Shown here piece after piece: positions 1,568 to 63,691 of a DNA stretch of 64,000 nucleotides. The first letter of the stretch is position 1. Every line of letters begins with the position of its first letter. The stretch comes from Vicinamibacterales bacterium (GTDB lineage Bacteria > Acidobacteriota > Vicinamibacteria > Vicinamibacterales > 2-12-FULL-66-21), in NCBI GenBank assembly GCA_035758845.1, contig DASTVZ010000172.1, positions 2,812-66,811 of the forward strand. The letters are read 5' to 3'. The notes under the pieces are model-generated. The model ran no database searches. It worked only from the letters and a program-made list of their open reading frames with translations, and was not told the origin of the DNA. Both the position numbers and the translations under genes were made by a program.

Positions 1568-1712
1568 AGAATTGCGGAGTGCTGATTGTTGATTGCTGAT
1601 CTTGTCGATTGCGGATTGTTGATTGAGATTGCTGATTGACGATTGAGATTGCCGAATTGATGATTTTATCGCGACTCGGCCAGCCGCCAAGCGCCAATCG
1701 CCAATCGCAGAA
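1568..1712. repeat. GATTG-word low-complexity element (copy 1)
   Basis: At least 12 GATTG-containing words (GCTGATTG, TTGATTG, GCGGATTG, GAGATTG, ACGATTG), then the reverse words CCAATCGCCAATCGC. It fills the spacer between the ABC exporter stop and the ettA start. Confidence 0.8.
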
Positions 1713-8221: not shown

Positions 8222-8239
8222 ATTGCTGAAGGCTGATTG

Positions 8240-8345
8240 GTGAATCGCGCCGGGATCCGGTGTGCGGGATCCGCGATCCGATCCGTTGCACGGCCTGGAT
8301 CAACTCGGAAAACGGATCCCGGAAAACGGATCCCGACAGCCCGCC
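8240..8345. repeat. GGATCC-word element
   Basis: CCGGGATCCGGTGTGCGGGATCCGCGATCCGATCCG...GGAAAACGGATCCCGGAAAACGGATCCCGAC. Confidence 0.75.
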
Positions 8346-51735: not shown

Positions 51736-52567
51736 CGGAAAACGTACCGAAGGCGGCCGCCAGATATCCGACGACCGCGTCATAATCGCCAGAGACTTCC
51801 CCCGAATGTGCGTACTTCAACACGCGACCATGCTTTGCCCCGAGCGCACGCGCCGCTTTCATCACGGCGATGGCCGCACCACCGCCGCACGCCACGTAGC
51901 GTCCGCGTTCGTGTTCGGGATACTGCTCGAACAGATCGAGGAGTCCCTCTGGATCGAAGGCCGCGACGCGCTCCTTCACACGTCCATCGAGCGAGGCCGC
52001 CGTTTTCGCATCGAAGTAGTGCGACAGGTCGGTGCTCGCCACCAGCAGTACGCGGCGACCCTCGCTGGCGCGGACGATCGCATCGGCGAGCGCGTCGATC
52101 GTCGCGCGATGCTGAAACCCGATCAGCACCGGCACGATCGACAGATCAGGATGCAGGCGGCGCAGAAATGGCAGCTGCATTTCGAGCGAATGCTCACGTT
52201 GATGCGCCGACGGCATCGCCTTCACGATCGCGGATGCAGCCAGCGCGTGAGCCGCGGCTTCGTCGATGCGCGCCATGCCAAGCGGTGAGTCGAAGCCGCC
52301 GTCAGGCCACAGGGCCGCTCCCTCGAACGCCACGAAATGTGAAGGGCCGACGAGGACGGCGACGTCGAAGGTCCGGGAGGTTGTCGCCTTGTACGAGTAC
52401 GCCCCGACGGGTCCGGAAAACATCATGCCGGCATGCGGAGCGATAATCGCGGTGAGGTCACCGGGCGGCCCATCGGCCGCGATCTTCAGGTAGTCGTCAA
52501 CCTCGCGCGTCAACGCACCAGCTGTGCCCGGGTACCAGGTGCCTGCAACGGCCGTAGGACGAATCAT
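51725..52567 (-). CDS. AmmeMemoRadiSam system protein B (MEMO1 family)
   Basis: MIRPTAVAGTWYPG....L..EV..YL, IIAPHAGMMFSGPVGAYSY and STDLSHY. Confidence 0.85.
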   Translation of the reverse strand: MIRPTAVAGTWYPGTAGALTREVDDYLKIAADGPPGDLTAIIAPHAGMMFSGPVGAYSYKATTSRTFDVAVLVGPSHFVAFEGAALWPDGGFDSPLGMARIDEAAAHALAASAIVKAMPSAHQREHSLEMQLPFLRRLHPDLSIVPVLIGFQHRATIDALADAIVRASEGRRVLLVASTDLSHYFDAKTAASLDGRVKERVAAFDPEGLLDLFEQYPEHERGRYVACGGGAAIAVMKAARALGAKHGRVLKYAHSGEVSGDYDAVVGYLAAAFGTFSDAH

Positions 52568-52574
52568 GGTAAAT

Positions 52575-52682
52575 CCTGAAATTGCTGATTGCTGATTGCT
52601 GATTGCTGATTGACGCGTTGGGAGCTTCAGACTCTTTCAATCGTCATTCAGCAATCAACAATCAGCAATTCTTTAGTGCTAC
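52575..52682. repeat. GATTG-word palindromic element (copy 2)
   Basis: (CTGATTG)x5 arm, a ~25-nt loop and the complementary arm CAATCGTCATTCAGCAATCAACAATCAGCAAT. It fills the divergent Memo/gatC spacer. Confidence 0.85.
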
Positions 52683-52691
52683 CATCGCCCG

Positions 52692-52988
52692 ATGTCGAAT
52701 ACATTTTCGCGTGGCGACGTCGAACGCGTCGCGCGCCTTGCCCGCCTGGAACTGACGGGCGAAGAAAAAGATCTATTCGCGCGTCAGCTGGCGGAAATCC
52801 TCGCCTACGCCGAGCAGATTCAGCGCGTTCCCACAGAAGGCGTCGAACCAACGTCGCACGCGGGGGATGCCGCTGCGCTTCGCGACGACACCGTGGTTCC
52901 GTCGCGGCCGCGCGAAGAGTTCCTGGCCGCCGCGCCCGATGCCGACACATCCGCCGGTCTCTTCAAAGTACCACGGGTGCTGGCATGA
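52692..52988 (+). CDS. gatC: Asp/Glu-tRNA amidotransferase subunit C
   Basis: [35 protein letters not shown]...T.GVEPTSH. Confidence 0.9.
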
Positions 52989-60853: not shown

Positions 60854-61599
60854 AGAACACCGTCCGTCTCGACACGCTGCTCGTGGATCGCGGGCTCGCC
60901 GCGTCGCGCGAACGGGCGCGCGCGCTCATTCTCGCCGGCCATGTTCGCGTCAACGGTCAGCCGGCAGCCAAAGCAGGAACTGCGGTCACTCGCGATGCTG
61001 AGGTGAGTGTACTCACCCCGGATCATCCCTACGTCGGGCGCGGCGGAGTGAAGCTGGCGCATGCGCTCGAGACGTTTTCGATTCCGGTCGCTGGCTGCGT
61101 CGCGCTCGACATCGGTGCGTCGACTGGCGGATTCACAGACGCGCTTCTTCAGCGAGGGGCCTCACGCGTGGTCGCGCTCGATGTCGGACATGGCCAGCTC
61201 GATTGGAAACTTCGAAACGATCCGCGGGTCGATGTCATCGAGCGCGTCAACGCTCGAACGTTGAGGATTCCAGACCTGCCGGCCGGCCGCGCTCCCTTCG
61301 ACATCGTGACGATCGACGTCTCGTTTATCTCACTCAAACTCATTCTGCCGGTCGTTCCTCCGTTGCTCGCCGATACAGGTGATGTCGTTGCACTGGTCAA
61401 GCCGCAGTTCGAAGCTGGACGCGCCGAAATCGGCAAGGGCGGGATCGTCCGCGACGAGCACGTGCATGCCCGCGTGCTGGAAGAAGTAACGAATGCGGCG
61501 GATGCGCTAGGATTGGGGCGCCGCGGGGTTGCCGAGTCTCCGATTTCCGGCATGGAAGGCAACCGCGAGTTTCTGCTGCACCTTCGGCGCCGCACATGA
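60850..61599 (+). CDS. tlyA: TlyA family 16S/23S rRNA (cytidine-2'-O)-methyltransferase
   Basis: The TTG start overlaps the ispA stop. VRLDTLLVDRGLAASRERARALILAGHVRVNG (S4 domain), LDIGASTGGFTD, DVGHGQL and DVSFISL. Confidence 0.85.
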   Translation: MKNTVRLDTLLVDRGLAASRERARALILAGHVRVNGQPAAKAGTAVTRDAEVSVLTPDHPYVGRGGVKLAHALETFSIPVAGCVALDIGASTGGFTDALLQRGASRVVALDVGHGQLDWKLRNDPRVDVIERVNARTLRIPDLPAGRAPFDIVTIDVSFISLKLILPVVPPLLADTGDVVALVKPQFEAGRAEIGKGGIVRDEHVHARVLEEVTNAADALGLGRRGVAESPISGMEGNREFLLHLRRRT

Positions 61600-62489
61600 C
61601 GGTTTCACGGCCAATCACACGCGTCGGGCTCGTTGCCAAAACCGGGCTCACCGCCGCCGCCGGCGCGCTGGCTGAACTGGCCGGCTGGCTCGAAGCGCGC
61701 GACGTGCACGCGGTATTCGAGACCGAAACAGCCACCGTGGCCGGCCTGCCGTCAGGACGACGGACGGTCAATCGCGACGAGCTGCCGCGTGCCTGCGATT
61801 TGGTGGTCGTCCTCGGAGGCGACGGCACGCTGATTGGAATGGCCGATCGGATCGCAAAATCGGCCGCCGATGTTCCGATTCTCGGAGTGAACTTCGGCAG
61901 CCTCGGCTTCCTCACCGAGATCACTCTGCCGGAGTTGTATCCGTCGCTCGAATCCGTGCTGCGCGGAACGGCGCAGATTGAAGAGCGCATGATGCTTCGC
62001 TCGCGAACGCTGCGCACCGGCGACGTCCACGCCGACCACCTCGCGCTCAACGATGTCGTGATCACCAAAGGTGCCCTGTCGCGAATCATCGATTTGGAAG
62101 TCGACATCGGCGACCGGCCGATCATGCGCGTCCGCGCCGACGGCCTGATCGTGGCGAGCCCGACCGGATCGACCGCCTATAACCTGGCCGCCGGCGGGCC
62201 GATTCTGCATCCGGAAGTCGATGCCGTGCTGCTGACGCCGATCGCCCCACACATGCTCACCAATCGCCCGGTCGTCGTTCCCGCGTCATTCGAAATCCAC
62301 GTGCGGCCGGTCATCGACGGATCGAATGAAGAGGTCTACATCACGATTGACGGTCAGTCCGGACACGCGCTTCAGGCCGACGACGAGATCTGTATTACCC
62401 GGGCTGAGCGGCCATTGCGGCTGGTTCGGGCGTCGACGAGAACGTACTTTGATGTGTTGAGGCAGAAGCTGAAATGGAGTGAGAGGTGA
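61596..62489 (+). CDS. nadK: NAD kinase
   Basis: DLVVVLGGDGTLIG, NFGSLGFLTE and ADGLIVASPTGSTAYNLAAGGPI. Confidence 0.9.
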   Translation: MTVSRPITRVGLVAKTGLTAAAGALAELAGWLEARDVHAVFETETATVAGLPSGRRTVNRDELPRACDLVVVLGGDGTLIGMADRIAKSAADVPILGVNFGSLGFLTEITLPELYPSLESVLRGTAQIEERMMLRSRTLRTGDVHADHLALNDVVITKGALSRIIDLEVDIGDRPIMRVRADGLIVASPTGSTAYNLAAGGPILHPEVDAVLLTPIAPHMLTNRPVVVPASFEIHVRPVIDGSNEEVYITIDGQSGHALQADDEICITRAERPLRLVRASTRTYFDVLRQKLKWSER

Positions 62490-62494
62490 ACTCG

Positions 62495-62678
62495 AGAATT
62501 GCTGATTGCTGAATGGCGATTGTCGATTTTCTGATTGACGAATGGCGATTGGGATTGACGAATGGCGATTGGGATTGTCGATTATCGATTGTCGATTGAA
62601 GGCGCCGCCGCACAGTCCTCAATCGGCAATCCCAATCGAAAAATCCGCACTCGCCAATCCGCAATCCACAATGAACAG
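62495..62678. repeat. GATTG-word palindromic element (copy 3, largest)
   Basis: Forward words include the 20-mer GACGAATGGCGATTGGGATT x2. A GC-rich centre follows, then the reverse words CAATCGGCAATCCCAATCG...CGCCAATCCGCAATCC. It fills the convergent nadK/mltG spacer. Confidence 0.85.
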
Positions 62679-62680
62679 AT

Positions 62681-63691
62681 TCACCGCCTCCGCCTCTGAT
62701 ACTGATCGACGTTCCGATTGTGTTCTTCGAGTGTCGCCGCAAACGCATGCGATCCATCACCGCGCGCGACGAAGTAGAGATACGGTACGTCGGCAGGGCG
62801 TGCGGCGGCTTCGAGTGACGCGCGTCCGGGGTTCGCGATCGGTCCGGGCGGCAGCCCCGGATATCGGTAGGTGTTGTAGGGCGAATCGATTTGCATGTTC
62901 TCTCGCGTGAGATTGCCGTTGTAGCGGTTGGCACGTTCTAACGCGTAAATGACGGTCGGATCACACTGGAGCGCCATCCCGATCTTCAGCCGGTTGCTGT
63001 AAACAGCGGCGACAAGCGGTCTCTCCTCTGGCTTCCCCGTCTCCTTCTCGACGATTGATGCGAGCGTAACGAGCTCCCGCAAGGTGAGTCCTCGCGCCTC
63101 GGCGGCCGACAAGGTCTCGGGGGCAAGCGCTTTCTCGAACCCATCCACCATCCGCGGCACGAGTTGGGCTGCGGTCGTGTTGCGCGTCATCGCGTACGTG
63201 TCTGGGAAGAGATACCCCTCGAGATCCTTCGCCGCCGGATCCAGATTGCGAATGAGTTTCGAATCCGACGCCTGCGTCGAGAAATCCTTCGCCGAGCCCA
63301 AACCTTTGGACTCGAACAACTGCGCCATCTCGCGCATCGTGAGCCCTTCGCGGAAGGTGATGGGGACGAGGTAGACGTCACCGCGGGCGATCTTGTCGAC
63401 GACCTCTCTGACCGTCATGGGTCGATCGAATCGGTACTCGCCCGCCTGCAGGCGCCGGCCCAGGCCAGAACGCAGAATCTCAAAGCGAAAGCCGAGTCTG
63501 TCGCGAATCACTCCTGCATCCGCGAGACGTCTTCCAATGGACGTGGGGCCAGATCCTTCAGGGATTTCGACAAACTGTTCCGCCCCCTCATACCCCTTGA
63601 ACGGTGAAACTTCGGCCAGCACAATCCGCCAGCCAGCGAACCCGACGACCAACAGGATGAGAATGAAGATCCAGATCGCCAGCCGCTTCAC
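62681..63691 (-). CDS. mltG: Endolytic murein transglycosylase MltG (YceG-like)
   Basis: N-terminal TM MKRLAIWIFILILLVVGFAGW. LASIVEKET, YNTYRYPGLPPGPIANPG and YLYFVA..DGSHAF. Confidence 0.9.
   Translation of the reverse strand: MKRLAIWIFILILLVVGFAGWRIVLAEVSPFKGYEGAEQFVEIPEGSGPTSIGRRLADAGVIRDRLGFRFEILRSGLGRRLQAGEYRFDRPMTVREVVDKIARGDVYLVPITFREGLTMREMAQLFESKGLGSAKDFSTQASDSKLIRNLDPAAKDLEGYLFPDTYAMTRNTTAAQLVPRMVDGFEKALAPETLSAAEARGLTLRELVTLASIVEKETGKPEERPLVAAVYSNRLKIGMALQCDPTVIYALERANRYNGNLTRENMQIDSPYNTYRYPGLPPGPIANPGRASLEAAARPADVPYLYFVARGDGSHAFAATLEEHNRNVDQYQRRRR

What the first reader, a model, noticed from the sequence alone, without database searches (positions are those of the whole stretch)
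62490..62680. GATTG-word palindromic low-complexity elements that fill entire intergenic spacers
Seen: at 62490-62680 (convergent nadK/mltG ends) about 100 nt are built from forward words. These include ATTGCTGATTG, GACGAATGGCGATTGGGATT x2 and TCGATTATCGATTGTCGATTG. A GC-rich centre follows, then about 55 nt of the reverse-complement words (CAATCGGCAATCCCAATCG..CGCCAATCCGCAATCC). At 52568-52691 (divergent Memo/gatC starts) a (CTGATTG)x5 arm and a complementary arm can form a ~30-bp imperfect stem around a 25-nt loop. At 1565-1715 (ABC exporter stop / ettA start) at least 12 GATTG words are followed by CCAATCGCCAATCGC. A short version lies at 8222-8245. No coding or known RNA feature explains them, and the ORF-track peptides across them are artefacts. 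Inference: they occur between convergent, divergent and tandem genes alike, so they are not simply terminators. They may be a genome-wide structured-repeat or insulator family, or a binding-site array for a DNA- or RNA-binding protein.
Basis: seen in the sequence. Interest (0 to 1): 0.62.

Follow-up and report, generated by a model that had tools for sequence, protein, structure and literature searches.

The report
Polar GATTG heptamer-repeat hairpins between genes
The gap between the nadK and mltG genes of this soil acidobacterium is filled by one copy of a genome-wide family of fast-changing hairpin repeats built from 7-base GATTG words. In related genomes the same repeat arms enclose a small four-helix-bundle gene of the kind known from ribosomal-RNA "intervening sequences", so these hairpins look like gene-less copies of that little-understood cassette.

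Summary
The 191-nt nadK/mltG spacer (62490-62680) and the Memo/gatC spacer (52580-52670) are GATTG-word hairpins. The site at 1565-1715 is essentially one-armed, and 8222-8245 is negligible.

The genome, a Vicinamibacterales MAG, holds 141 such word clusters against 6-8 in simulated genomes. GATTG is the largest of many heptamer families. Polarity is absolute: the GATTG arm always comes first and the CAATC arm second (98 vs 0 across 151 genomes of the class).

Large copies have polar, modular arms: 3-4 heptads, a cGATTTkk linker, then n x 20-nt units in a 7-7-6 rhythm. The two arms change independently by slippage, shown by a 20-nt step between near-identical contigs. They show no compensatory covariation, no target duplication, no terminator tail and no bias for any gene orientation.

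I found no support for a RAYT link, a reverse transcriptase or a Chi-like orientation.

In relatives the same arms bracket PF05635/TIGR02436 four-helix-bundle genes. A decayed copy lies in this genome. Presence of that gene subfamily tracks GATTG abundance (p=9e-7, not phylogeny-corrected).

My best reading is that these are gene-less derivatives of an IVS-like cassette. Whether the protein binds the words, or RNase III cuts the hairpins, is inferred only. No RNA data could be obtained.

The parts
62497..62532 (+). Outer module of the 5' arm: the degenerate word AATTG, GATTG, the degenerate word GAATG, GATTG, then the linker TCGATTTTCT (62523-62532).
   Evidence: Read. The same order (heptads, then a GATTT-containing linker) is seen in 34 of 87 arms. 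The linker falls at the 3rd gap from the outer end in 19 of those.
62533..62598 (+). Inner array of the 5' arm: two identical 20-nt units GATTGACGAATGGCGATTGG (62533-62552 and 62553-62572), then GATTGTCGATTATCGATTGTCGATTG.
   Evidence: Genome-wide, 7-7-6 spacing triplets number 98 against 15 for 7-7-7. In a contig whose NadK is 97% identical the units are replaced by GATTGccGATTGagGATTGt x3.
62599..62619 (.). Unique GC-rich centre (loop): AAGGCGCCGCCGCACAGTCCT.
   Evidence: The centres of 63 hairpin copies are heterogeneous, 1-35 nt long.
62620..62671 (+). 3' arm: CAATCggCAATCcCAATC, the mirror linker GAAAAATCCGC (62638-62648), then outer words CCAATCcgCAATCcaCAATG.
   Evidence: It pairs with the 5' arm in the predicted folds.
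61596..62489 (+). nadK (NAD kinase). Its stop codon lies 7 nt before the first word of the element.
62681..63691 (-). mltG (endolytic transglycosylase). Its stop codon lies 9 nt after the last word.
52580..52612 (+). 5' arm of a second, short-type copy: AATTG plus four CTGATTG words. It starts 12 nt from the Memo start codon, which reads CAT on the + strand at 52565-52567.
52638..52670 (+). 3' arm of the second copy (CAATC, CATTC, CAATC, CAATC, CAATT). It ends 21 nt before the gatC ATG (52692).
   Evidence: -50.3 kcal/mol, z -7.7.
1584..1651 (+). Long array of 9 exact GATTG words. On the sense (-) strand this is the CAATC arm that abuts the ettA start codon at 1564.
1694..1707 (+). Two-word partner arm CCAATCGCCAATCG next to the stop of the MsbA-like exporter (1716-1718). 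Too short to give a significant fold.
   Evidence: z +0.45.

Best explanation
The element at 62490-62680 is one copy of the most abundant family of polar heptamer-array hairpins in a Vicinamibacterales (Acidobacteriota) genome.

Anatomy. Each copy is two tandem-array arms placed head to head around a short unique centre. The 5' arm is made of GANTGnn words and the 3' arm of their complement. Read from the outside in, each arm is a polar unit: 3-4 heptads, a cGATTTkk linker, then a variable number of 20-nt units in a 7-7-6 rhythm.

Shown:
- The arms change independently by slippage in 7- and 20-nt steps.
- The inner arrays are locally homogenised.
- The hairpin potential is generic to the family and is not tuned within each copy.
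- The order 'G-rich arm first' is absolute.
- Copies sit in any gene context and are gained, lost and replaced between close relatives.

Also shown: in related genomes the same arms, with the same architecture and order, enclose a small PF05635/TIGR02436 four-helix-bundle gene. This family is related to Avd and to the 23S-rRNA intervening-sequence protein. A frameshifted remnant of such a cassette lies in this genome at C42:26934-27577.

Inferred:
- The gene-less hairpins are internally deleted, non-autonomous derivatives of that IVS-like cassette.
- Their words are the recognition sites of the cognate four-helix-bundle protein.
- When transcribed, the long stems are cut by RNase III, as rRNA intervening sequences are.

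How new copies are made is not known.
For: Family and excess:
- 141 word clusters against 6-8 in simulated genomes.
- Patchy within the genus and rare elsewhere in the order.
- The 7-7-6 module occurs mostly in Vicinamibacterales soil MAGs.

Polarity:
- 77 clusters have GATTG first against 7 reversed.
- The pattern test gives 98 against 0 over 151 genomes of the class.
- Across all heptamer families, 91 pairs are G-first and 3 are reversed.

Modular arms are seen in this genome and in other species.

Slippage:
- L142 and L143 differ by exactly one 20-nt unit.
- L139 (NadK 97% identical) keeps the flank, outer module and linker but has a different, homogenised inner unit.

No covariation between the arms of one copy:
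- Own arms are 84.3% complementary and foreign arms 83.6%.
- Own arms fold at -35.5 kcal/mol and foreign arms at -36.3.

Core constraint: 40 of 61 degenerate words differ at position 3 only, while the nn spacer is highly variable.

Cassette link:
- Homologues of the C42 remnant are PF05635/TIGR02436 above the curated cut-offs.
- They are flanked by a GATTG arm, then the gene, then a CAATC arm, in G019, G015, G007, G001, G014, G006 and in metagenome-derived loci. Full modular arms of 9-16 words are seen in L259, L268, L264, L044, L045 and L077.
- More distant homologues carry other words: CTGAATG, AATTGCCAAA, CATTGGG.
- Homologue presence against GATTG richness over 41 genomes is 12/2/2/25, Fisher p=9e-7.
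- 9 of 10 PF05635 loci have an adjacent heptamer array, against 20% of all genes.
- G002 carries such a cassette inside the same nadK/mltG spacer.

Published precedent: the Coxiella 23S IVS holds the same gene family in the loop of a 28-bp stem, with copy-variable tandem heptamers, and is cut by RNase III (PMC4990558).
Against: - In this genome only one decayed gene-bearing copy exists, against about 50-80 gene-less copies. No intact cognate gene is present, so any protein-dependent process would not be active here now.
- At the nadK/mltG site, relatives show a graded series from 17 to 218 nt. It starts from a mini-palindrome that includes both stop codons. This fits growth in place as well as it fits insertion.
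- No target-site duplication, no recombinase and no observed movement.
- The co-occurrence test is not corrected for phylogeny.
- Another PF05635 subfamily shows the opposite order: C-arm, gene, G-arm.
- Many other word families exist, more than there are PF05635 genes in the genome.
- No transcript, RNase III or binding data.
Confidence: 0.6

Rival explanations
1. Pure compound microsatellites. The arrays arise and grow in place at each spacer by replication slippage of 7-nt seeds, for example AATTG/CAATT next to the stop codons. They have no element identity and no relation to PF05635 genes. The shared architecture comes from a shared mutational bias and from selection against harmful orientations.
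For: - Period 7 dominates all tandem repeats in the genome: 1242 arrays in many unrelated unit families.
- A 20-nt step polymorphism and local homogenisation of units are seen.
- A graded size series runs from 17 to 218 nt at one orthologous site, starting from the mini-palindrome TGA..GAAAATGCAATTTCA.
- There is no target duplication.
- The strand that runs towards neighbouring genes is almost free of starts, stops and SD-like motifs: 0.7, 0.8 and 0.5 per 100 nt, against 10.1, 6.6 and 2.5 on the other strand. This gives a selective reason for the polarity.
Against: - The same outer module and linker, at the same ordinal position, recur at dozens of loci and in several species. Independent slippage would not reproduce this.
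- The core is conserved position by position while the spacers vary.
- The arms physically bracket one gene subfamily in many genomes.
- Polarity is as strict between convergent genes (17:2) as elsewhere, and no start codon needs protecting there.
Confidence: 0.2
2. Locally selected RNA structures. Each hairpin would be kept because its transcript acts as a terminator, a 3'-end stabiliser, a processing site or a translational coupler for the neighbouring genes.
For: - Folding potential is strong: full elements have a median z of -7.7.
- Single arrays start a median of 8 nt after a stop codon with the G-rich strand in the sense orientation (57 vs 21, p=5.6e-5).
- rRNA intervening sequences with similar stems are RNase III substrates (PMC4990558).
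Against: - There is no compensatory covariation within copies.
- No U-tract follows the stem, and the T-run lies on the 5' side.
- Frequency is about equal in divergent, tandem and convergent spacers.
- The closest relatives have a 10-nt spacer and no element at all (G006, L140, L141).
- One-armed copies are common: 46 of the 141 clusters.
Confidence: 0.1
3. REP/REPIN- or MITE-like non-autonomous transposons, mobilised in trans by a RAYT (Y1) or other transposase that recognises the conserved outer module.
For: - High copy number and intergenic location.
- Conserved terminal inverted modules.
- Presence/absence polymorphism among strains with 97% identical NadK.
- Three Y1_Tnp-like genes are present in the genome.
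Against: - None of the three Y1 genes is flanked by GATTG arrays.
- Own flanks share no target duplication: 3.14 nt against 3.28 nt for foreign flanks.
- The only gene ever found between the arms is PF05635, not a transposase.
- Y1 gene counts do not follow GATTG counts across relatives.
Confidence: 0.06
4. Telomere-like or reverse-transcriptase-made arrays. The G-rich strand of each arm would be synthesised 5' to 3' from the two 3' ends of a break, on an RNA template that starts with the outer module. The result would be head-to-head arms like a telomere fusion.
For: - The polarity is the one expected for synthesis converging on the centre.
- The arms are polar, with a conserved start and a variable end, and are independent of each other.
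- PF05635 is related to Avd, the reverse-transcriptase accessory protein of diversity-generating retroelements (PMC10053308).
Against: - No RVT_1 reverse transcriptase is detectable in this 100%-complete genome or in most GATTG-rich relatives.
- The centres are unique sequence.
- The graded local growth series argues for expansion in place.
Confidence: 0.02

Closest known systems
GGGAATC / GGGGA(C/T)T heptamer repeats of Xanthomonas and Nostoc (Rehm et al. 2015, PMC4692102)
   Same: - Tandem 7-nt units, hundreds of copies, strongly intergenic, sometimes as inverted pairs.
- Copy number varies between close relatives.
- The repeat lies nearer the ORF on its 5' side whatever that ORF's orientation. 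This is the same polarity rule found here.
   Different: - GATTG words have no G-runs, so a G-quadruplex cannot explain them.
- Here the arms have a conserved outer module, a linker and a 20-nt super-unit.
- No under-representation between divergent genes is seen for this family.
- A link to PF05635 genes was not reported for Xanthomonas, although the solved PF05635 structure 2GSC is from X. campestris.
ORF-bearing intervening sequences (IVS) of 23S rRNA encoding S23p/PF05635 (Coxiella burnetii, Leptospira; Warrier et al. 2016, PMC4990558)
   Same: - A PF05635 gene sits in the loop of a long stem formed by terminal inverted repeats.
- The stem contains tandem heptamers whose number varies between strains.
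- It has been proposed to be selfish or mobile.
- The cassettes with GATTG arms in relatives have this design.
   Different: - The elements here lie between protein-coding genes, not in rRNA helices.
- The copy under study is gene-less.
- The arms are much longer arrays.
- RNase III cleavage is untested here.
REP / BIME / REPIN elements mobilised by RAYT transposases
   Same: High-copy intergenic palindromic repeats, often as inverted dimers, with lineage-specific sequence.
   Different: - REPs are single 20-40-nt imperfect palindromes with a conserved tetranucleotide head, not tandem arrays.
- REPs flank their RAYT gene. Here the Y1 genes are not flanked by the repeats.
Cyanobacterial STRR heptamers and TAACTGA direct repeats of Beggiatoaceae, Cyanobacteria and Bacteroidetes (MacGregor 2015, PMC4679880)
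   Same: Dispersed tandem heptamers in intergenic regions, close to gene ends, function unknown, patchy distribution across phyla.
   Different: - Those are mostly direct, one-armed arrays of a single word. TAACTGA lies in the sense orientation just upstream of start codons.
- Here the arrays are paired as inverted arms, and the start- and stop-free strand faces the genes.
BOX elements of Streptococcus pneumoniae (from my own knowledge, not tested here)
   Same: Modular intergenic repeats: conserved end modules (boxA, boxC) flank a variable number of an internal unit (boxB). They form stable hairpins and have no encoded transposase.
   Different: Unrelated sequence and a different phylum. The BOX internal unit is 45 nt and not heptamer-based, and no gene-bearing form is known.

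Membership tests
Polar inverted heptamer-array repeats (Rehm-type heptamer SSRs) | Tandem units of 7 nt, many dispersed intergenic copies | tested here: met
   Word spacing is 7 nt in 324 of 594 gaps and 6 nt in 61. There are 141 clusters, 82 of them with at least 6 words, and almost all are intergenic.
Polar inverted heptamer-array repeats (Rehm-type heptamer SSRs) | The G-rich strand has its 5' end next to the neighbouring ORF (G-rich arm first in inverted pairs) | tested here: met
   98 vs 0 for GATTG across the class. 91 vs 3 for all families. For single arrays between convergent genes, 57 vs 21.
Polar inverted heptamer-array repeats (Rehm-type heptamer SSRs) | G-quadruplex-forming unit (at least 3 G per unit, preference for 4 units) | tested here: not met
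   The unit GANTGnn has no G-run. Arm lengths range from 3 to 16 words.
PF05635-bearing IVS-like cassette | A PF05635/TIGR02436 gene enclosed by the inverted arms | tested here: not met
   The copy at 62490-62680 has a 21-nt centre and no gene. The feature is met for sister elements: L254, L255, L257, L259, L264, L268, L044, L045, L077. A frameshifted remnant lies at G000 C42:26934-27577, scoring 20.8 bits, below the cut-off.
PF05635-bearing IVS-like cassette | Arms of the gene-less copies share sequence architecture with the arms of the gene-bearing copies | tested here: met
   The outer heptads, cGGATTTT linker and 7-7-6 inner units are the same in the arms of L259, L268 and L264 as in gene-less copies.
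PF05635-bearing IVS-like cassette | Excision of the stem-loop from the transcript by RNase III | not testable with these tools
REP/REPIN | A cognate RAYT (Y1 transposase) gene flanked by the repeat | tested here: not met
   The three Y1_Tnp-like genes in G000 have no GATTG arrays within 2.5 kb.
MITE | Target-site duplication at the ends | tested here: not met
   The longest direct match between the two 14-nt flanks is 3.14 nt for own flanks and 3.28 nt for foreign flanks, over 49 elements. The outer boundary is fuzzy, so very short duplications cannot be excluded.
MITE | A related autonomous element that carries a transposase between the same ends | tested here: not met
   The only gene found between GATTG arms is PF05635.
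Intrinsic (Rho-independent) terminator | GC-rich stem followed by a U-tract | tested here: not met
   No terminator-like site in 62300-62850. The T4-5 run of the linker lies 5' of the inner stem on both strands.
Known RNA families (Rfam 15) | A match at the family's gathering threshold | tested here: not met
   No match in the whole window.

The most novel reading that the evidence does not exclude
PF05635/TIGR02436 four-helix-bundle proteins are sequence-specific readers of short nucleic-acid words. Each subfamily, together with its own inverted heptamer arrays, forms a recombinase-less, self-propagating cassette. The hundreds of gene-less polar heptamer hairpins in Acidobacteria are its non-autonomous offspring, and by extension so are the unexplained heptamer repeats of Xanthomonas, cyanobacteria and other phyla. 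The universal 'G-rich arm first' rule would then reflect how the cassette is copied or tolerated.
Probability: 0.3. Interest if true: 0.85.

Novelty: new variant of a known kind. Interest (0 to 1): 0.55.

Why it matters
Dispersed heptamer repeats have been noticed for decades in cyanobacteria (STRR), Xanthomonas, Beggiatoaceae and others. No mechanism or function has been established for them.

This locus adds four things.
- A non-G-quadruplex word obeys the same strict polarity rule, which removes the G4 explanation as a general one.
- The arms are polar, modular units that evolve independently by slippage, without selection for pairing within a copy.
- One orthologous spacer within one genus shows the empty, gene-less and gene-bearing states.
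- There is a statistical and physical link between one word family and one subfamily of an uncharacterised, Avd-related four-helix-bundle protein.

That link turns a descriptive puzzle into a testable hypothesis: does the protein bind its words, and is it needed to make or keep the arrays? It would also connect rRNA intervening sequences with ordinary intergenic repeats.

On the practical side, these arrays create spurious ORFs and extended start codons, break assemblies, and are hypervariable markers for strain typing in soil metagenomes.

Tried and rejected
- Rfam at gathering threshold over the whole window: nothing.
- RAYT/Y1 transposase association: three genes present, none flanked by GATTG arrays.
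- Reverse transcriptase (telomerase- or TPRT-like synthesis): no RVT_1 in this genome or in most GATTG-rich relatives.
- Chi-like orientation. The G-rich strand would be correctly oriented for RecBCD/AddAB entering from a break at the centre. However, single arrays show no association with contig GC skew (OR 0.76, p=0.44), and GCTGATTG is only weakly skewed.
- Conserved GGCGCC centre, which I suspected from the first listings: GCGC is present in only 10 of 63 centres.
- Compensatory covariation between the two arms of a copy: none by identity or by folding energy after swapping arms.
- Target-site duplications: none.
- Terminator and promoter consensus at the main locus: none.
- 'Clean leader' selection as the sole cause of polarity: it cannot explain the equally strict polarity between convergent genes. 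It is also violated next to the other PF05635 subfamily.
- Literature search for acidobacterial heptamer repeats: no paper in the library. No paper describes PF05635 with heptamer arms outside rRNA.
Full report
OBSERVATION.

The nadK ORF ends with TGA at 62487-62489. The mltG ORF on the minus strand ends at 62681-63683's low end, that is, TCA on the + strand at 62681-62683. The gene names are confirmed as NAD kinase and MltG.

The 191 nt between the two stops consist of three parts:
- a 5' arm of GATTG-type words (62497-62598);
- a unique 21-nt centre (62599-62619);
- a 3' arm of CAATC words (62620-62671).

GATTGNNGATTG occurs 13 times in the window against 0.21 expected. The stretch folds better than dinucleotide shuffles as RNA on both strands (z -4.0 and -3.4) and as DNA (z -3.35).

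The Memo/gatC copy (52580-52670) is a clean hairpin of -50.3 kcal/mol with z -7.7. The copy at 1565-1715 has nine exact words on one side and two on the other and does not fold better than chance (z +0.45). The 'short version' at 8222-8245 has one exact word and is not meaningful.

GENOME-WIDE PICTURE.

The window is C9:2812-66811 of a 6.08-Mb, 62% GC assembly. Record titles of matching public contigs place the family in Vicinamibacterales soil MAGs of the Acidobacteriota.

There are 141 clusters of at least four GATTG/CAATC words, against 6-8 in Markov-1 simulated genomes. Of these, 82 have at least six words. They are almost all intergenic by a proxy gene call. They are spread over tandem, convergent and divergent contexts (24, 21, 17, 13) in roughly the genomic proportions.

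A Tandem Repeats Finder census shows that period 7 dominates all tandem repeats (1242 arrays). GATTG (canonical unit AATCAGC and its variants) is the largest of many unit families. The others include AAAAGGG, ATCCCGG, AGCAGCC and AATGCTG.

POLARITY.

Among GATTG clusters, 77 have the GATTG words first and the CAATC words second, and 7 have the reverse order.

With a stricter pattern the difference is total. GATTGNNGATTG-N(4-34)-CAATCNNCAATC matches 65 times in this genome and 98 times in six of 151 genomes of the class. The reversed order matches nowhere.

Across all 6-8-nt unit families, inverted neighbouring arrays number 116 against 2 direct. Every family has a single orientation. The first arm has G>C in 91 pairs against 3. 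Because the arrangement is its own reverse complement, this is a real asymmetry and holds on both strands.

Single arrays between convergent genes start a median of 8 nt after the nearer stop codon with the G-rich strand in the sense orientation (57 vs 21, p=5.6e-5). This is the rule that Rehm et al. reported for GGGAATC repeats, which lie closer to the ORF on their 5' side whatever its orientation (PMC4692102). It is extended here to a word that cannot form a G-quadruplex.

One consequence concerns translation signals:
- The strand running from the centre towards the neighbouring genes has 0.7 starts, 0.8 stops and 0.5 SD-like motifs per 100 nt.
- The other strand has 10.1, 6.6 and 2.5.

This may help explain why only one polarity is tolerated. 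It cannot be the whole story, because polarity is just as strict between convergent genes (17:2).

ANATOMY OF AN ARM.

Large copies share a polar architecture, read from the outside in:
- three or four heptads, often GATTGcgGATTGcgGATTGatGATTG;
- a linker containing GATTT (consensus cGGATTTkk);
- a variable number of 20-nt units GATTGnnGATTGnnGATTGa.

A linker-type gap is present in 34 of 87 arms and falls at the third gap from the outer end in 19. The 7-7-6 spacing triplets number 98 against 15 for 7-7-7.

The main locus follows this plan. It has the linker TCGATTTTCT at 62523-62532, two identical 20-mers at 62533-62572, and the mirror linker GAAAAATCCGC at 62638-62648.

The same architecture occurs in other species' MAGs, with 23 of 23 pairs in the same polarity. 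One-armed arrays have it too.

The core is constrained position by position. Of 61 degenerate words flanked by exact ones, 40 differ at position 3 only, so the word is GANTG. The two spacer bases are highly variable. A short-type subfamily, (CTGATTG)n, has a conserved outer motif: CTGAAATTTCT ... AGAAATTTCAG.

HOW THE ARMS EVOLVE.

The two arms of one copy are no more complementary to each other than to arms of other copies. Identity is 84.3% against 83.6%. Folding energy of loop-proximal 42-mers is -35.5 against -36.3 kcal/mol. The hairpin potential is therefore a by-product of shared words, and pairing is not maintained by compensatory change.

Inner units are locally homogenised within an arm and differ between the arms of one copy.

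The orthologous nadK/mltG spacer gives direct evidence:
- Two near-identical metagenome contigs differ by exactly one 20-nt unit (198 vs 218 nt).
- A contig with 97% identical NadK keeps the left flank, outer module and linker, but its inner units are all replaced by a different 20-mer and its 3' arm is short.
- The equally close G006, L140 and L141 have a 10-nt spacer and no element.
- Other members of the genus carry palindromes of other words at the same site: CTGAATG, GGGATTC, GGTCTCT, GGTTCTT, AATTGCCAAA.
- Other families of the order have 0-21-nt GC-rich spacers.

Within the GATTG clade the spacer forms a graded series of 17, 31, 55, 78, 93, 133, 191 and 218 nt. It starts from the mini-palindrome TGA-gttgg-GAAAATGCAATTTCA, which includes both stop codons.

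The Memo/gatC spacer tells the same story.

MECHANISMS TESTED AND NOT SUPPORTED.

- Rfam finds nothing.
- There is no terminator or promoter consensus. The T-run of the linker lies 5' of the inner stem on both strands, the opposite of an intrinsic terminator.
- Three Y1-transposase-like genes exist, but none is flanked by the repeat.
- Own flanks share no direct repeat beyond chance, so no target duplication is detectable.
- A Chi-like role fits the geometry but not the data. Single arrays do not follow contig GC skew.
- A telomerase- or TPRT-like origin would explain the converging G-rich strands and the arms' conserved start and variable end. However, no RVT_1 reverse transcriptase is found in this complete genome or in most GATTG-rich relatives.

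THE LINK TO A FOUR-HELIX-BUNDLE GENE.

Notes from earlier agents of this scan claimed that PF05635 genes are often bracketed by inverted heptamer arrays. I treated these notes as leads and tested the claim here.

General association. PF05635 is present in 33 of 41 relatives. Nine of ten fetched loci have a heptamer array next to the gene, against 20% of all genes in this genome (p=4.5e-6). Three of ten have arrays on both sides, against 1.3%.

In this genome. The only GATTG arm pair with a long centre and no ordinary gene is C42:26934-27577. It encloses a frameshifted PF05635-like remnant. Its C-terminal part scores E=4.7e-4, below the Pfam cut-off.

Homologues in relatives. Using the remnant read through as a query, I found two groups:
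- intact homologues of 70-76% identity at the orthologous locus in G019, G015 and G007;
- paralogues of 45-56% identity in G014, G007, G006 and G001.

They score above the curated cut-offs for PF05635 and TIGR02436. All are flanked by a GATTG arm on the left and a CAATC arm on the right, whatever the strand of the gene. The paralogues have full modular arms of 9-16 words. Three more such cassettes lie in the MAG loci.

Word follows protein. More distant homologues carry other words: CTGAATG at 32% identity, and AATTGCCAAA, CATTGGG, GAAGGT and CTGAAGT at 42-53%. One of them, in G002, sits inside the very nadK/mltG spacer studied here.

Co-occurrence. Over 41 genomes, presence of a homologue against at least 20 GATTG triple-word hits gives 12/2/2/25 (Fisher p=9e-7). 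This test is not corrected for shared ancestry, but one genome of another family (G037) has both.

Ratio. Gene-less copies outnumber gene-bearing ones by about 10:1 in the sampled MAG loci and by at least 49:1 in this genome.

INTERPRETATION.

The published relative of this design is the 23S-rRNA intervening sequence of Coxiella. There a PF05635 (S23p) ORF sits in the loop of a 28-bp stem that contains copy-variable tandem heptamers and is cut by RNase III (PMC4990558). PF05635 resembles Avd of diversity-generating retroelements. Its solved representative, 2GSC, comes from Xanthomonas campestris, the organism of the GGGAATC repeats (PMC10053308).

My best reading is that the GATTG hairpins are gene-less derivatives of such a cassette, and that their arms afterwards live their own life as slipping microsatellites.

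The following are shown:
- the family and its excess over chance;
- the polarity;
- the modular arms;
- independent evolution of the arms by slippage;
- turnover between close relatives;
- the physical and statistical association with the gene.

The following are inferred:
- that the gene-less copies descend from gene-bearing ones;
- that the protein recognises the GANTG words;
- that transcripts of the stems are RNase III substrates.

How copies spread is unknown.

Several points remain open. This genome has no intact cognate gene. The graded series at one site fits local growth. Another PF05635 subfamily shows the opposite arm order. There are more word families than PF05635 genes.

VERDICT.

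The finding is real and statistically overwhelming. It is not a terminator. It is a rich example of a partly described but unexplained class of bacterial repeats.

Compared with what is in print, it is a new variant of a known kind. Its distinguishing features are a non-G4 word, modular polar arms, and a testable link to an uncharacterised protein family.

Noticed in passing
window 52671-52694: gatC is preceded by a box conserved across the genus: GTGATAGCAT(C/G)C, which reads TAGTGCTACCATCGCCCG in this genome. It ends 5-10 nt before the ATG and there is no room for a Shine-Dalgarno sequence. This looks like a -10 element of a leaderless gatC mRNA.
   Followed up: no
L012 (G002:C70) 826-1500: In relative G002 the nadK/mltG spacer holds a complete PF05635 four-helix-bundle gene between inverted arrays of the 10-mer AATTGCCAAA / TTTGGCAATT. 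The same gene gap is therefore empty, gene-less or gene-bearing in different members of one genus.
   Followed up: partly
G000 C79:47509-48112 (outside the window): A different PF05635 gene is bracketed by GAATCCT(C/T) and GATTCAGG 8-mer arrays in the opposite order: C-rich arm, gene, G-rich arm. The same order is seen in L247, L252 and L249. Two cassette polarities therefore exist.
   Followed up: partly
L224 (G001) and L065 (cyanobacterium Kovacikia): A GATTG arm is followed by a C-rich array of an unrelated word (CAGCCGC in G001, CAACTAC in Kovacikia). The G-rich-then-C-rich order is kept without complementarity between the arms.
   Followed up: no
L148, L153, L150, L160 (metagenome contigs, nadK/mltG spacer): Some relatives carry a different kind of insert at this site: a 130-270-nt long imperfect palindrome with no short tandem words (for example ...caccacagagctagcggagtaagcagag...ctctgcttgctccgctacctctgtggtg...).
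   Followed up: no
L042 (Verrucomicrobia), L037 (Sediminibacterium), L055 (Cytophagales), L095 (Gemmatimonadales), L106 (Desulfobacterales): Single loci in distant phyla carry GATTG-word arms followed by CAATC arms in the same polarity. The word and the layout are therefore not confined to Acidobacteria.
   Followed up: partly
G000 C189:19873-20725 (outside the window): A 630-nt gene for a LON substrate-binding-domain protein has a GATTG-family element on each side. Repeats flank ordinary small genes too, which is a caution against over-reading cassette-like layouts.
   Followed up: partly
whole genome G000: Because the CAATC-type strand has no stop codons in any frame, first-start ORF calls run into the arrays from the neighbouring gene. 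About 24 of 82 clusters overlapped a called ORF only in this way. Automatic annotation of these genomes probably over-extends many N-termini.
   Followed up: partly
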